Origin: Pseudomonadota bacterium
GTDB taxonomy: Bacteria > Pseudomonadota > Alphaproteobacteria > Paracaedibacterales > CAIOTO01
NCBI GenBank assembly: GCA_040387495.1
Contig: JAZKDQ010000006.1
Location: 113,391-177,390 of the forward strand
Length of the DNA: 64,000 nt
Reading direction: 5' to 3'
Shown here: piece after piece, positions 26,081 to 29,607 of the stretch
Layout of the letters: each line of letters starts with the position of its first letter
How positions within the stretch are numbered: the stretch's first letter is position 1
The notes under the pieces: generated by a model
Told to the model about the DNA's origin: nothing
What the model saw: the letters and a program-made list of their open reading frames with translations, nothing else
Databases searched by the model: none
Program-made: the position numbers and the translations under genes

Positions 26081-27760
26081 ATGGCATCGTATCAATACGT
26101 ATATGTAATCAAAGAATTGCGCAAAGCTTACCCAGGCGGGAAAGAAGTAATGAAAGACCTCTGGCTGTCATTTTTGCCGGGCGTTAAAATTGGTGTAATC
26201 GGGCCAAACGGTGCAGGTAAATCAACGCTACTTAAAATCATGGCGGGCATCGACAAAGATTTCCAAGGTGAAGCATGGGCAGCCGAAGGTGCAAAAATTG
26301 GCTATTTAGCACAAGAGCCAGAACTGGACCCAGCTCTCGACGTGGTCGGCAATATCAAGAAAAGTCTTGGCGAAACGCAACGCTTACTGACCCGTTTTGA
26401 AGAAGTGAATATGAAATTCGCCGAACCCATGTCAGATGATGAAATGAATGCGTTGATTGCTGAACAAGGTGAACTTCAAGAAAAAATTGACCATCTTGAT
26501 GCGTGGGATTTGGATCGTCAAATTGAAATTGCGATGGATGCACTTCGTTGCCCTGCTCCTGAAGCATCGATCGAACGTCTTTCGGGTGGTGAAAAGCGCC
26601 GTGTTGCGTTGTGTTCACTTCTGTTGCAAAAACCTGATCTTCTATTGCTTGACGAGCCGACAAACCATTTGGACGCTGACTCTGTTGCTTGGCTCGAGCG
26701 CCATTTGCAAGATTATAAGGGGACTGTTGTACTGATCACGCATGACCGTTATTTCTTGGATAATGTTGTTAGTTGGATTCTTGAAATCGATCGCGGCCAA
26801 GGATTCCCATTCGAAGGAAACTACTCCAGTTGGCTCGAGCAAAAAGAAAAACGTCTACTCATTGAATCAAAAGGTGAATCTCAGCGCCAGAGACAACTCA
26901 AGAGCGAGCTTGAATGGATCCGTCAGTCACCAAAGGCCCGTCAGAGCAAATCAAAAGCCCGTATCCAAGCATATGAAGATTTGTTGAATGAAAACGTTGA
27001 TACAGGCGCGGGTGATGGATCAATATTCATTCCAGCGGGAGAACGTTTGGGTGATTTGGTGATAGATTTAGAACACGTATCAAAAGGATATGGCGATCGT
27101 CTGCTTATTGATGACCTAACATTTAAAATGCCACGTGGTGGTATCGTTGGTGTGATTGGCCCAAATGGCGCTGGTAAAACAACATTGTTTAACATGCTAA
27201 CGGGCAAAGACAAACCTGACCAAGGTGAAGTTAGAATTGGCGATTCTGTGCGTTTGGGCTATGTGGATCAGTCACGTGATACGCTAAATCCGAATAAAAA
27301 CGTGTGGGAAGAAATTTCCGACGGCCTTGATATGATTGTGCTTGGTAAACGTACTGTAGCTAGCCGCCAGTATTGCAGCTGGTTTAACTTTAAAGGATCA
27401 GACCAACAAAAAAAGGTTGGATCACTATCAGGTGGTGAACGTAACCGTGTGCATTTGGCAAAAATATTGCGTTCAGGCGCGAACGTTTTGTTCTTGGACG
27501 AGCCGACGAATGATCTTGACGTTGAAACATTGCGTTCACTCGAAGAAGCCCTGTTAAGCTTTGGCGGTTGTGCGATTGTGATTACCCATGATCGATTCTT
27601 CCTTGACCGTATCGCGACGCACATTTTAGCGTTCGAAGGTGATAGTCATGTTGAATGGTTTGAAGGCAACTATCAATCATACGAAGAAGATCGGAAACGT
27701 CGTTTGGGCGCGGATGCGTGTCAACCACATCGGATTAAGTACAAGCCGTTAACACGGTAA
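26081..27760 (+). CDS. ettA: Energy-dependent translational throttle protein EttA (ABC-F ATPase)
   Basis: Two ABC cassettes (GPNGAGKST twice, LSGGE twice). Collinear similarity to E. coli EttA includes the C-terminal RIKYK. Confidence 0.95.
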
Positions 27761-27788
27761 ACTCCGCAAGAATTAGCACATTTAGAAT

Positions 27789-27825
27789 CCCCTCTTGATT
27801 CACTCAACGAGGGGGCTCTTCTTTT
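27789..27825 (+). terminator. Rho-independent terminator of ettA
   Basis: GC-rich hairpin cccctcttga...tcaacgagggg followed by ctcttctttt. Confidence 0.7.
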
Positions 27826-27928
27826 ACACAATGGACTGTCATCTTTTTTGTCTTTACTCAAGAGAACTGAAACACATTTCATTATGTAAAAGCCCCCTGA
27901 TAAACAAAACTATAACTAGTTTCAAATT

Positions 27929-28621
27929 TCAAAGAAATTCAACCATATTTGCGACATCTGTAATTTCTGATAAAGAATTAAGCATAGTATTATATTCATC
28001 AAATGTCATTGTCTCATCAAGAATTCCTTGTCCATTGAAATAAGCAATGGCCAAGATAAATTGTAATTCTGTTGGTTTATAATGGCCACAACCTCTATTG
28101 ATTTTGGAAATCTTTCCATTTCTTACTTCCATGTGACCAGCGCAGGCAACAGGCTGTCCAATACCATCTTTTGGAAAAATTGAGTTATGGTGAATCTCCC
28201 CAAATCTCCCCATAAGGGAGGGCCATAGACTCTCAGACAAGATACGAAGATCGCCCTTTGGATTTAAGGCCCAAAGTGTGTGACAGGTATTTAGAATTTC
28301 ACCGTCTTGGTAGATTTTCCCATCTATAATTTCTACTGACATAACGGCAGCCGAATCTTCTGGAAGGCAATGCGTATTTCTCATTTGTTGCTTGCTTATT
28401 AAAAATTTATTACAAACTCTCAAATTATTATTATCTGGTTGTTGATGTAGAGAGTTTTCACGGAATTCCGTATAGAACTCTTCGACAGCCTCATCTTTAA
28501 ATTTCATCCCAGCATAAGGTCTTGCATCCGAAAAATCCTCAAATGGATCACGAACATCATCCATTGAACTTACACTTGTTATCAATAGTAAAGTAAACAT
28601 TAAAGTAGTCATTAACTTCAT
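27929..28621 (-). CDS. Hypothetical secreted protein (cargo between the ettA 3' repeats)
   Basis: Signal peptide MKLMTTLMFTLLLITSVSS. AT-rich, with no recognised domain. Confidence 0.6.
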   Translation of the reverse strand: MKLMTTLMFTLLLITSVSSMDDVRDPFEDFSDARPYAGMKFKDEAVEEFYTEFRENSLHQQPDNNNLRVCNKFLISKQQMRNTHCLPEDSAAVMSVEIIDGKIYQDGEILNTCHTLWALNPKGDLRILSESLWPSLMGRFGEIHHNSIFPKDGIGQPVACAGHMEVRNGKISKINRGCGHYKPTELQFILAIAYFNGQGILDETMTFDEYNTMLNSLSEITDVANMVEFL

Positions 28622-28812
28622 TTATAAAACTCCAAAATTATTTCTTACATAATTATATATAGTAACTTATTTTACAATTACAATAACAATTACATATAAA
28701 AATCTCAGTTTGTAATTTTTATATGTAAGAAATCAAGTTGGATCGTTGCTATGCCTTAACTTCCTTTGTGAAAAATTCATTACCTTGTGGCTGGAAAAAT
28801 GAATATGGTGAA

Positions 28813-29322
28813 CGTTTAGGCTATGTAGATCAGTCAGGTGATACGTTGAATCCAAATAAAAATGTGTGGGAAGAAATTTCAGACGGTCTTGATATGATTG
28901 AACTTGGCAAGCGTACTGTAGCTAGCCGACAGTATTGCAGCTGGTTTAACTTTAAAGGATCAGACCAACAAAAGAAGGTTGGGTCACTATCAGGTGGTGA
29001 ACGTAACCGTGTGCATTTGGCAAAAATTTTGCGTTCAGGTGCGAATGTTCTGTTCTTGGACGAGCCGACGAACGACCTTGACGTTGAAACATTGCGTTCA
29101 CTCGAAGAAGCATTGCTCACCTTTGGTGGTTGCGCGATTGTGATTACCCATGATCGATTCTTCCTTGACCGTATCGCAACGCACATTTTAGCGTTCAAAG
29201 GCGACAGTCATGTGGAATGGTTTGAAGGTAACTATCAGTCATATGAGGAAGACCGCAAGCGTCGTTTGGGCGCGGATGCATGTCAACCATATCGTATTAA
29301 GTACAAGCCATTGACGCGGTAA
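28813..29322 (+). pseudogene. Truncated duplicate of the ettA 3' end (last ~169 codons)
   Basis: Collinear with 27251..27760. It lacks everything upstream of the second ABC signature region. The ORF-track N-terminus (28738..28812) has no ettA homology. Confidence 0.88.
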
Positions 29323-29350
29323 TTTCTGCAGTAATTAACACATTTACATG

Positions 29351-29387
29351 CCCCCTCTTGAGCCATTCAACGAGGGGATTTTCTTTT
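29351..29387 (+). terminator. Duplicated copy of the ettA terminator
   Basis: Hairpin ccccctcttg...caacgagggg followed by attttctttt, homologous to 27789..27825. Confidence 0.65.
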
Positions 29388-29607
29388 GCAATGGAGACTT
29401 TTAAGGGTTATTTTTCATGACCCGTGGAAGCTACCGTTTAAAAAATGTGTGAACAACTCTGCCAAATTTCTATTTGTGTAACAATATCGGAAATCTAACG
29501 GGCCTTCCCTCTCAGAGTAACATTATAAGTTACTGATTGAGAGAAGTTTTTTATAATATTTAATTGTTAATATACTTTGTTAATAATTAAATATTATTTA
29601 TGTAAAT

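What the first reader, a model, noticed from the sequence alone, without database searches (positions are those of the whole stretch)
27251..29398. ~590-bp direct repeat of the ettA 3' end plus terminator brackets a 1-kb cargo; the copies differ almost only at synonymous sites
Seen: 28813..29398 is collinear with 27251..27838. Both cover the last ~169 codons of ettA, the stop codon, the terminator hairpin and about 15 more bases. Between them lie ~980 bp of AT-rich DNA carrying one minus-strand gene for a secreted protein. My manual codon-by-codon alignment gives roughly 38 synonymous codon differences against only 5 amino-acid changes (R>G, V>E, S>T, E>K, H>Y).

Inference: a simple in-situ duplication followed by decay of a dead copy should not be biased this way. 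The pattern implies that both copies diverged while under purifying selection, so one copy came from a different but related ettA allele or lineage. This is the footprint expected when an islet integrates or recombines at the 3' end of a conserved gene and brings a replacement 3' end with it, as happens with tRNA/tmRNA and 3'-end-targeting genomic islands. No integrase remains, so this may be the eroded stump of a larger element, or the product of homologous recombination with foreign DNA. ettA as an integration target would be unusual.
Basis: partly seen in the sequence, partly recalled or inferred. Interest (0 to 1): 0.65.

Follow-up and report, generated by a model that had tools for sequence, protein, structure and literature searches.

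The report
Displaced ettA 3′ end: recombination scar
A leftover second copy of the last third of the housekeeping gene ettA shows that this endosymbiont-type bacterium took in DNA from a related species next to ettA, adding one secreted-protein gene beside another; this is a clear example of a known kind of event, not a new type of mobile element.

Summary
Window 27251-27838 (last 169 codons of intact ettA, spacer, terminator) and 28813-29398 are collinear at 89-91% identity. They differ by 39 synonymous codons and 5 amino-acid changes (dS 0.50, dN/dS 0.03).

Synonymous change dominates on both branches, so each copy evolved inside a working ettA. The copies are sister sequences among eight relatives (924/1000). 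One therefore came from an unsampled sister lineage.

An integrase-borne islet is not supported:
- There is no integrase, tRNA or identical core.
- The repeat's right edge is the end of the ettA transcription unit, conserved in every relative with DNA downstream of ettA examined.
- The "cargo" gene sits in the same place in outgroup L161 without any duplicate, and divergence is continuous across 27251.

Every relative carries a different gene after the ettA terminator, in most cases an unrelated secreted-protein-like ORF. Two relatives have mosaic EttA proteins with different breakpoints.

Best explanation: integrase-independent recombination anchored in ettA's 3′ end, with one illegitimate joint at 28812/28813, placed two lineage-specific cassettes in tandem. 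It is most simply a single crossover with a circularised fragment. Which copy is native is unresolved. This is a new member of a known kind and of modest interest.

The parts
26081..27760 (+). Intact ettA (559 aa, two ABC domains plus ABC_tran_Xtn). This conserved gene supplies the homology used as the recombination anchor.
   Evidence: ORF. Pfam finds ABC_tran x2 and ABC_tran_Xtn. It aligns over residues 1-559 with all relatives.
27251..27838 (+). Copy A: codons 391-559 of the functional ettA, the stop, a 28-nt spacer, the terminator hairpin (27789-27814), the T-run and about 12 further nt.
27929..28621 (-). The 'cargo': a 230-aa secreted-type protein. Its C-terminal ~165 residues are an uncharacterised domain that also occurs at the C-termini of large proteins, including one with filamentous-haemagglutinin repeats.
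   Evidence: ORF; no Pfam match. A 64%-identical homolog sits at the same position in L161. 266 remote homologs were found. P0142 carries Fil_haemagg_2. The AF2 model has pLDDT 89.9, with no PDB fold match.
28622..28812 (.). AT-rich spacer upstream of the cargo gene, presumably its promoter region. It contains an imperfect palindrome at 28631-28742 and ends at the novel joint.
   Evidence: (I3). No detectable homology to the L161 spacer.
28812..28813 (.). The single novel (illegitimate) junction. Cargo-upstream spacer is joined to codon 391 of an ettA 3′ fragment: ...AATATGGTGAA|CGTTTAGGC, compared with native ...GATTCTGTG|CGTTTGGGC.
   Evidence: It lies inside the unique Logan contig L162.
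28813..29398 (+). Copy B: a displaced ettA 3′ end (codons 391-559, lacking Walker A of NBD2), with stop, spacer and terminator hairpin (29352-29377). It is a relic from a sister lineage.
29608..30153 (-). A 181-aa ORFan with a signal-peptide-like N-terminus and an internal repeat. It is the second lineage-specific cassette and is linked to copy B.
   Evidence: repeat D5. There is no homolog among 5.8 billion proteins other than itself. It is present in Logan contig L165.
30314..31414 (-). Glycoside hydrolase family 3 (nagZ-like) gene. It is the conserved right-hand flank of the variable slot and is syntenic in L001 and L161.

Best explanation
The second ettA 3′ end is a scar of integrase-independent recombination between two sister-lineage versions of the same locus.

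In this Paracaedibacteraceae-like clade, the position just after the ettA terminator carries a different gene in every lineage examined, in most cases an unrelated secreted-protein-like ORF. One version of the locus was ettA(A)-terminator-cargo. The other was ettA(B)-terminator-181-aa ORF-GH3. DNA of one version entered a cell carrying the other and recombined through the conserved ettA 3′ segment. A single illegitimate joint formed at 28812/28813. As a result the two cassettes now lie in tandem, separated by a redundant ettA 3′ end.

The simplest route is Campbell-type. A circularised 1562-bp fragment carried ettA codons 391-559, the terminator, cargo and 190 bp of spacer, and its closing joint was 28812|27251. 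A single homologous crossover with the resident ettA produced a 588-bp duplication flanking the insert. On that route cargo and A are incoming, and B and the 181-aa ORF are resident. A linear, one-sided-homology event (HFIR) in either direction gives the same product.

Shown:
- The two copies, their selection history and their sister relationship.
- A single novel joint, and no integrase.
- Cargo is ancestral at this position.
- The slot downstream of ettA is variable, and EttA is mosaic in relatives.

Inferred:
- The route (circle versus linear DNA).
- The direction of transfer.
- The age: about 1% neutral divergence ago, judged from 3-4 replacements in B at otherwise mostly invariant or nearly invariant residues.
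For: - Selection history: dN/dS=0.03, dS=0.50. Synonymous change dominates on both branches. The B branch has 3-4 N against 15 S, p about 1e-7 versus neutral; the A branch gives p about 2e-15.
- Non-coding divergence after the stop is 24% with a conserved hairpin stem, close to the silent-site divergence.
- A and B are sister sequences at 999, 916 and 924 of 1000 as taxa are added. They are 90.8% identical to each other and 81-89% to the others.
- L001 has a single ettA with no cargo. L161 has ettA-terminator-cargo-GH3, collinear with window 26081-28643, and no duplicate.
- W-L161 identity is continuous across 27251: 83.3% for 5′ ettA, 81.2% for segment A, 78.6% for cargo.
- The terminator is conserved, and homology ends after it, in all five taxa compared.
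- The gene downstream of ettA differs in all eight lineages examined and the ORFs compared are mutually unrelated.
- EttA proteins P0279 and P0289 are mosaic, with breakpoints at residues 348-377 and 385-420.
- Experimental precedent: in E. coli, 56 of 60 integrants with one-sided homology carried a 109-950-bp duplication of the homologous segment, produced by a single crossover with a circular molecule (PMC3240628).
- No integrase, tRNA or Rfam feature is present.
Against: - No donor genome and no 'before' state has been found. The 181-aa ORF is an ORFan, so a B-type locus (ettA-terminator-181 aa) is inferred, not observed.
- The direction of transfer is unresolved. No breakpoint signal is visible inside the window's ettA, and the relative-rate difference between A and B is not significant.
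- Microhomology at the joint cannot be assessed without the parental sequences.
- How a 1.5-kb circular intermediate would form in an endosymbiont-type bacterium is unknown.
- With homology available at both ends (ettA and GH3), a clean replacement would be the usual outcome, so this additive product must be rare.
Confidence: 0.68

Rival explanations
1. Eroded stump of a site-specific integrative element. An islet carrying an ettA 3′ replacement end and the cargo integrated at about codon 391 through a tyrosine or serine recombinase. The integrase and the rest of the element were later deleted.
For: - The geometry matches e14 and phage 21 at icd, where a replacement 3′ end accompanies a displaced pseudo-copy (PMC6379469).
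- The cargo domain is toxin/effector-like, which is typical island cargo.
- The A-type V420/Q430 end occurs on L001-type EttA backgrounds. In P0289 the breakpoint interval (residues 385-420) includes codon 391.
- Prophages with an integrase abutting ettA exist elsewhere, though at its 5′ end.
Against: - There is no integrase or any other mobility gene; the whole insert is one gene.
- There is no identical core at the edges.
- Cargo occupies the same position in L161 without a duplicate and with no drop in divergence.
- The P0279 breakpoint (348-377) lies upstream of codon 391, so the exchange site is not fixed.
- A-type ends in P0289 and P0279 are not followed by a cargo homolog.
- The repeat's right edge coincides with the universal end of the ettA unit.
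Confidence: 0.12
2. Import in the opposite direction by one-sided homology. The resident locus was ettA(A)-cargo-GH3, as in L161. A donor fragment carrying ettA(B) codons 391-559, the terminator, the 181-aa ORF and part of GH3 was anchored by homology in GH3. Its left end joined illegitimately in the cargo-GH3 spacer at 28812. This is a sub-variant of the best explanation and differs only in which copy is native.
For: - The cargo-type arrangement is the one seen in the outgroup, so a resident A and cargo requires no re-acquisition.
- No gene is disrupted at any step.
- HFIR with an illegitimate joint at one end is documented (PMC3240628; PMC5361080).
Against: - No change in divergence is seen along GH3 that would mark a crossover.
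- HFIR products usually show insertion plus deletion rather than a flanking duplication, whereas single-crossover products give exactly the observed duplication.
- The donor's left end had homology to the resident A copy available, which would normally give a clean replacement.
Confidence: 0.2
3. An old in-situ tandem duplication whose second copy (B) has been kept under purifying selection because the truncated EttA fragment is expressed and useful.
For: - A and B are sister sequences.
- B is an open frame. A 184-194-aa ORF is called as a gene in the source record.
- dN/dS on the B branch is low.
Against: - B lacks the Walker A motif of NBD2 and has no recognisable ribosome-binding site.
- 3 of its 4 replacements hit residues that are otherwise mostly invariant or nearly invariant across the aligned EttA sequences (R9, E129, H160), which indicates relaxed constraint.
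- No relative carries such a fragment.
- A tandem duplication of 27251-28812 would also duplicate cargo, and that is not seen.
- The first two differences next to the joint are A-derived and are not shared by B.
Confidence: 0.04
4. Assembly or library artefact that joins two co-occurring related strains.
For: Related lineages co-occur in sibling runs; L238 comes from SRR26324622. The source appears to be a metagenome-type assembly.
Against: - The joint connects non-homologous sequence, so a graph mis-join at a shared k-mer cannot create it.
- A second assembler (Logan, k=31) recovers A-cargo-B on one unique contig and B-181 aa-GH3 on another, both 100% identical to the window.
Confidence: 0.04

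Closest known systems
Single-crossover (Campbell-type) integration of a circular molecule with one-sided or truncated homology, and homology-facilitated illegitimate recombination (HFIR). Sources: de Vries & Wackernagel 2002; Prudhomme et al. 2002; Amarir-Bouhram et al. 2011 (PMC3240628).
   Same: Foreign DNA is added next to a homologous anchor without a dedicated recombinase. A duplication of a few hundred bp of the anchor (109-950 bp in the experiments, 588 bp here) flanks the insert. There is one non-homologous joint.
   Different: Here the case is natural and inter-species (9% divergence between the copies), in an uncultured endosymbiont-type alphaproteobacterium. The donor, the route of DNA entry and any microhomology are unknown. 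The experimental systems used plasmids or transforming DNA under selection.
Displacement of resident 3′ ends and orphan modules in rhs, CDI and T6SS effector-immunity loci. Sources: Jackson et al. 2009; Kirchberger et al. 2017 (PMC5361080).
   Same: An incoming module anchored in conserved upstream sequence pushes the former 3′ end downstream, where it persists as an orphan. The result is an array of lineage-specific cassettes acquired from relatives. The phylogeny of the pieces shows foreign origin rather than duplication.
   Different: The anchor here is a housekeeping translation factor whose 3′ end is itself conserved. What varies is the neighbouring, convergently transcribed gene, not a toxic C-terminal tip with its immunity gene. 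Only one displacement is seen.
e14 and phage 21 integration in icd of E. coli, and tRNA/tmRNA-targeting islands.
   Same: The target gene stays intact because the insert supplies a replacement 3′ end. The original 3′ end remains as a pseudo-copy on the far side (163-bp icd′). The two copies differ mainly at silent sites.
   Different: Those elements encode an integrase, have a defined identical core, are excisable and are absent from empty sites. None of these features is found here. The 'insert' gene is also present at the same place in an outgroup without any duplicate.

Membership tests
Integrase-mediated island/prophage at the 3′ end of a gene (e14/icd type; tRNA/tmRNA islands) | Direct repeat made of the target gene's 3′ end flanking the insert, with the target gene kept intact | tested here: met
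   27251-27838 vs 28813-29398; ettA is intact at 559 aa.
Integrase-mediated island/prophage at the 3′ end of a gene (e14/icd type; tRNA/tmRNA islands) | Integrase or recombinase gene within or next to the insert | tested here: not met
   The insert holds one ORF with no Pfam match. The neighbours are ftsH, fabG, GH3, a PPTase and housekeeping genes.
Integrase-mediated island/prophage at the 3′ end of a gene (e14/icd type; tRNA/tmRNA islands) | Identical core sequence at both att sites, at the crossover | tested here: not met
   Differences start 5, 14 and 24 nt from the left edge. The longest exact runs (44 nt) are internal and lie in the conserved coding sequence.
Integrase-mediated island/prophage at the 3′ end of a gene (e14/icd type; tRNA/tmRNA islands) | The insert is absent from the orthologous site in relatives (empty site), and when present it is bounded by the same repeats | tested here: not met
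   L161 has the cargo homolog at the same site with no repeat. L001 lacks cargo but has another gene there.
Single-crossover / HFIR additive integration through one-sided homology | Duplication of the homologous anchor segment flanking the added DNA (single-crossover signature), or insertion adjoining the anchor (HFIR) | tested here: met
   A 588-bp duplication flanks 974 bp of non-homologous DNA. The experimental range is 109-950 bp.
Single-crossover / HFIR additive integration through one-sided homology | One junction between sequences without homology, usually with 3-10 bp of microhomology | tested here: inconclusive
   A single novel joint at 28812/28813 was identified. Microhomology cannot be scored without the parental sequences.
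Single-crossover / HFIR additive integration through one-sided homology | The two anchor copies derive from different genomes (donor and recipient) | tested here: met
   dS=0.50 and dN/dS=0.03, with purifying selection on both branches. The copies are sister sequences but 9% apart.
Single-crossover / HFIR additive integration through one-sided homology | Donor and pre-integration recipient loci identifiable | tested here: not met
   No B-type locus or 181-aa homolog was found in the genome, metagenome or protein collections.
rhs/CDI/T6SS-type 3′-end displacement arrays | A displaced orphan 3′ fragment of the anchor gene lies downstream of the new module | tested here: met
   Copy B lies downstream of the cargo cassette.
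rhs/CDI/T6SS-type 3′-end displacement arrays | The gene has a conserved 5′ core and a polymorphic toxic 3′ tip paired with an immunity gene | tested here: not met
   The ettA 3′ end is conserved (97% aa between the copies). The variable genes are separate and convergently transcribed. There is no space for an immunity gene after the cargo gene.
In-situ tandem duplication with a decaying pseudo-copy | dN/dS near 1 on the pseudo-copy branch, and the whole duplicated unit repeated | tested here: not met
   The B branch has 3-4 N against 15 S, p about 1e-7 versus the neutral expectation. Cargo is not duplicated.

The most novel reading that the evidence does not exclude
The position just after the ettA terminator could be a dedicated exchange site for secreted-effector cassettes in Paracaedibacteraceae-like endosymbionts. 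On this reading, a portable module consisting of the ettA 3′ third, the terminator and an effector gene is shuttled between species by an unrecognised, possibly trans-acting, recombination system that targets ettA around codon 391. The window preserves the only unresolved intermediate.

This reading would account for four observations:
- A different gene follows the ettA terminator in every lineage examined.
- The A-type 3′ end occurs on L001-type EttA backgrounds.
- The P0289 breakpoint interval includes codon 391.
- Integrase-bearing prophages abut ettA in other bacteria.
Probability: 0.08. Interest if true: 0.6.

Novelty: new member of a known kind. Interest (0 to 1): 0.3.

Why it matters
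Gene gain in obligate or facultative endosymbionts is usually inferred only from presence/absence patterns. Here the recombination intermediate is preserved. A redundant ettA 3′ end, still bearing the signature of purifying selection in another species, marks how a lineage-specific secreted-protein gene was added next to a conserved anchor gene without any mobile-element machinery.

Three practical points follow:
- It gives a natural, dated example (about 1% neutral divergence old, between lineages about 9% apart) of integration through one-sided homology or a single crossover, a process known mainly from laboratory systems.
- It flags the ettA-downstream position as a fast-turnover slot for effector-like genes in this poorly sampled clade.
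- It shows annotators that the 184-aa 'ABC ATPase' ORF is a relic, not a gene.

Tried and rejected
1. Empty-site search. The genome contigs and metagenome-contig scans with EttA gave one close genome (L001) and otherwise hits of 74% identity or less. No record has ettA followed by 29399 onward, and the 181-aa ORF has no homolog.
2. Exact look-ups of the 230-aa cargo and of EttA failed. Alternative start calls and cluster members worked.
3. The spacers (28622-28812, 29399-29607, 30154-30313) were compared with the L161 spacer and with all relatives, and no homology above shuffled controls was found. I therefore could not test whether B and the 181-aa ORF sit inside an otherwise contiguous ancestral spacer.
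4. Deciding which copy is native was not possible.
   - GC3 is identical at 0.418.
   - The relative-rate difference (27 vs 17 unique changes) is not significant.
   - Quartet-informative sites and sliding identities show no breakpoint in ettA or GH3.
   - The 5′ tree is poorly resolved.
5. The phage-borne ettA 3′ fragment idea was tested. The IMG/VR scan found only full-length ettA genes, in many cases lying at provirus ends, with an integrase on the 5′ side in the two loci examined (L168, L173). The phage-genome tblastn search listed only near-full-length matches among its 25 top rows, several of them bacterial chromosome contigs filed in the phage collection; shorter hits were not inspected. 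L168 has no match in E. coli genomes. No paper links yjjK/ettA to prophage integration.
6. Cargo function remains open: no Pfam match, no PDB sequence hit and no Foldseek hit in the PDB despite a confident model.
7. Rfam and the promoter/terminator scans of the region gave nothing beyond the hairpins.
8. Tandem duplication followed by homologous replacement was rejected, because the first differences next to the joint are A-derived and absent from B.
9. DNA for the two mosaic EttA genomes (P0279, P0289) is not held, so only gene maps were available.

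
Full report
**1. Observation**

The repeat finder pairs 27251-27550 with 28813-29112 (92%) and the two hairpins 27789-27814 and 29352-29377 (88%). MAFFT and BLAST extend the match to 27251-27835 vs 28813-29395, 586 columns at 88.7%.

A position-by-position comparison at the fixed offset of 1562 nt shows that similarity starts abruptly at 27251/28813. This is the first base of codon 391 of ettA (26081-27760, 559 aa).

Over the 510 coding bases there are 47 differences, split 7/2/38 by codon position. That is 39 synonymous codons and five replacements (R9G, V30E, S103T, E129K, H160Y, numbered within the segment). Nei-Gojobori gives dS=0.50, dN=0.015 and dN/dS=0.03. The deficit of replacements against the neutral expectation has p=4e-21.

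Copy B is an uninterrupted frame. Both hairpins fold stably, with a conserved bulged 10-bp stem and different loops. The 75 alignable non-coding bases after the stop are 76% identical, close to the silent-site divergence.

**2. Is it an assembly artefact?**

Two contigs of an independent assembler (Logan, run SRR26324620) are 100% identical to the window. L162 covers 27586-28959, running from A-specific variants through the cargo gene into B-specific variants. L165 covers 29148-38153, running from B into the 181-aa ORF, GH3 and beyond.

Their ends fall exactly 30 nt into 44-nt runs that A and B share (27572-27615 and 27368-27411). This is where a k=31 graph must break.

The novel joint 28812/28813 connects sequences with no shared k-mer, so a graph mis-join between co-occurring strains cannot produce it. 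I could not examine read depth.

**3. Who is the organism, and what do relatives look like?**

The window's EttA belongs to a 90%-identity cluster of 26 sequences. One is named Candidatus Paracaedibacteraceae. Neighbouring genes in relatives include Sel1 and ankyrin-repeat proteins.

Nucleotide sequence was obtained for seven related ettA loci:
- L001 (MAG_236)
- L161 (Logan)
- L164 (JGI, 3′ part only)
- L231-236 (ENA)
- L237/238
- L239-241

None has a second ettA piece.

L001 reads ettA, then a 308-aa ORF on the plus strand, then GH3. L161 reads ettA, terminator, cargo homolog (64-67% aa) and GH3. It is collinear with window 26081-28643 in one BLAST segment.

In the other lineages the gene after the terminator is, respectively, ftsH, a 242-aa, a 358-aa, a 193/213-aa and a 467-aa ORF. 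The ORFs that were compared are mutually unrelated, and most have hydrophobic, signal-peptide-like N-termini.

The stop-spacer-hairpin-T-run unit is conserved in all five taxa aligned (A, B, L001, L164, L161), and all inter-taxon homology ends just after it. The right edge of the repeat is therefore simply the end of the conserved ettA transcription unit, not an attachment site.

**4. History of the two copies**

In neighbour-joining trees of the 510-nt segment, A and B are each other's closest relatives. Support is 999/1000 with five taxa, 916 with six and 924 with eight. They also share a derived three-base change, A39Q. They are 90.8% identical to each other and 81-89% identical to the others.

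Polarising the 47 differences with outgroups assigns 28 to the A branch (26 synonymous plus the two bases of E30V). It assigns 18 to the B branch (15 synonymous, 3 replacements), with S103T ambiguous. Against the 78% replacement sites expected under neutrality, both branches are strongly biased: p about 2e-15 for A and about 1e-7 for B.

B therefore spent most of its separate history inside a working ettA, that is, in another genome.

Three of its replacements (R9G, E129K, H160Y) hit residues that are otherwise mostly invariant or nearly invariant in the EttA sequences compared. B also lacks the Walker A motif of the second ATPase domain. This fits a short period of relaxed constraint after the event. 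By inference that period is about 4-5 substitutions, or roughly 1% neutral divergence, against 9% between the copies.

**5. Why not an islet with an integrase?**

- No integrase, transposase, tRNA or tmRNA lies within about 8 kb on either side. The only tRNA is at 3724-3797.
- No identical core exists at the edges. The first differences lie 5, 14 and 24 nt from the left boundary.
- The 'cargo' is resident at the same position in the outgroup L161. W-L161 identity is continuous across the 27251 boundary: 83.3% for ettA 5′, 81.2% for segment A and 78.6% for cargo. A and cargo are thus not a recently shared mobile unit.
- Two EttA proteins in the cluster (P0279, P0289) are L001-type over the N-terminal 390 residues, with 7 differences to L001 against 16-17 to the window. 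Both carry the A-type V420/Q430 signature. Their breakpoints differ (residues 348-377 and 385-420) and so do their downstream genes. No cargo homolog was found for either.

This last point is the pattern expected from repeated homologous exchange with a left crossover somewhere in the 3′ third of ettA. It is not the pattern of a fixed att site.

**6. Mechanism**

Only one non-homologous joint (28812/28813) has to be explained.

In E. coli conjugation experiments with one-sided homology, true HFIR (insertion plus deletion, with 3-10 bp of microhomology) was rare. In those experiments 56 of 60 integrants carried a 109-950-bp duplication of the homologous segment flanking the insert. These arose by a single crossover with a circular molecule whose homology was truncated (PMC3240628).

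The window has that architecture: a 588-bp duplication around 974 bp of foreign DNA. On this route a 1562-bp circle carrying ettA codons 391-559, the terminator, cargo and the spacer recombined with a resident ettA-terminator-181-aa ORF-GH3 locus.

Linear HFIR could give the same product in either of two ways. It could be anchored in ettA with cargo incoming, or anchored in GH3 with B and the 181-aa ORF incoming.

I could not determine which copy is native. GC3 is identical, the rate difference is not significant, and no breakpoint is visible in ettA or GH3.

Natural analogues are the displaced orphan 3′ ends of rhs/CDI loci and the orphan immunity arrays of V. cholerae T6SS clusters. For the latter, the same reasoning (phylogeny shows foreign origin, not duplication) and the same mechanism were proposed (PMC5361080). 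The integrase-driven analogue is e14 in icd, with its 163-bp icd′ copy (PMC6379469).

**7. The cassettes**

The cargo protein has a signal-peptide-like N-terminus. Its C-terminal ~165 residues have 266 remote homologs, often at the C-terminus of longer proteins of up to about 4,400 aa. One of these carries filamentous-haemagglutinin repeats.

Invariant residues in the alignment are H145, G162, G169, K170, I171 and G179. There is no Pfam family, no PDB sequence relative and no Foldseek match in the PDB, although the model is confident at pLDDT 89.9 and pTM 0.84.

The domain therefore looks like an uncharacterised toxin or effector domain. The absence of room for an immunity gene suggests a eukaryote-directed effector, but this is inference only.

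The 181-aa ORF is an ORFan with an internal repeat.

**8. Verdict**

The selection argument and the 'foreign related allele' inference are confirmed and strengthened.

The feature is a well-preserved natural example of a known process at a fast-turnover slot for mostly secreted-protein-like genes next to ettA in a poorly sampled endosymbiont clade. Novelty: new member of a known kind. Interest: about 0.3.

Noticed in passing
L167-L180 (IMG/VR proviruses, e.g. IMGVR_UViG_2840431614_000004 = L168: int 3518-4810, ettA 4840-6507): At least 14 predicted proviruses of about 16-54 kb (most 40-54 kb), mostly from isolate genomes, end exactly at the stop codon of a full-length ettA/yjjK (about 90% aa identity to enterobacterial YjjK). 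In the two loci examined (L168, L173), a tyrosine integrase (Arm-DNA-bind_2 plus Phage_integrase) stops about 30 bp before the ettA start. This suggests a prophage family that attaches at or next to the 5′ end of ettA. No paper in the library links yjjK with prophage integration.
   Followed up: partly
window 27929-28621 (-), residues ~65-229: The cargo's C-terminal domain is an uncharacterised family with 266 remote homologs, often C-terminal in proteins of up to about 4,400 aa; one of these carries filamentous-haemagglutinin repeats. Invariant residues are H145, G162, G169, K170, I171 and G179. The AF2 model is confident (pLDDT 89.9), but there is no Pfam, PDB sequence or Foldseek-PDB match. 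It is a candidate new toxin or effector fold.
   Followed up: partly
Proteins P0279 and P0289 (EttA 90% cluster); contigs in JGI 3300059473 and ERZ1426709/ERZ1426818: These EttA proteins are mosaic. The N-terminal ~350-385 residues are L001-type, and the C-terminal part carries the window's A-type V420/Q430 signature. The breakpoints differ (348-377 and 385-420). No DNA was available, so this rests on protein evidence only.
   Followed up: partly
Immediately downstream of the ettA terminator in L001, L161, L164, L231, L237, L239, the P0289 contig and the window: Every lineage has a different gene in this slot: ORFs of 230, 181, 308, 242, 358, 193/213 and 467 aa, or ftsH. The ORFs compared are mutually unrelated and most have signal-peptide-like N-termini. 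In several lineages the wider neighbourhood of ettA is rearranged as well.
   Followed up: yes
L163 (JGI Ga0079221_10220365), protein P0003: In an unrelated soil-metagenome contig, a partial EttA gene has an in-frame internal duplication of its C-terminal region (…FEGNFEAYEE-ITGGVDH…[25 protein letters not shown]… repeated). It is either another ettA 3′ duplication or a mis-assembly.
   Followed up: no
window 7155-10541: Self-BLAST shows a long stretch of diverged tandem or interspersed repeats (62-85% identity, with period-like offsets of about 100-200 nt). This is probably a large repeat-containing protein gene.
   Followed up: no
window 28631-28742: An imperfect palindrome in the AT-rich spacer upstream of the cargo gene. 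Its 21-nt arms are 86% complementary, there is a nested 14-nt perfect pair, and the DNA fold has z=-2.8. It lies 70 nt left of the illegitimate joint. It could be regulatory or could have promoted the breakage.
   Followed up: partly
window 29608-30153 (-): The 181-aa ORF has no homolog in 5.8 billion proteins. It contains a 49-nt internal direct repeat (29700-29748 and 29985-30033, 84%) encoding MKAN(F/L)AAMSPEK(Q/R)AE.
   Followed up: partly
window 28738-29322 (+): In the source record, copy B is called as a 184-aa protein-coding gene with an ABC_tran Pfam hit. It should be annotated as a pseudogene or gene remnant.
   Followed up: yes
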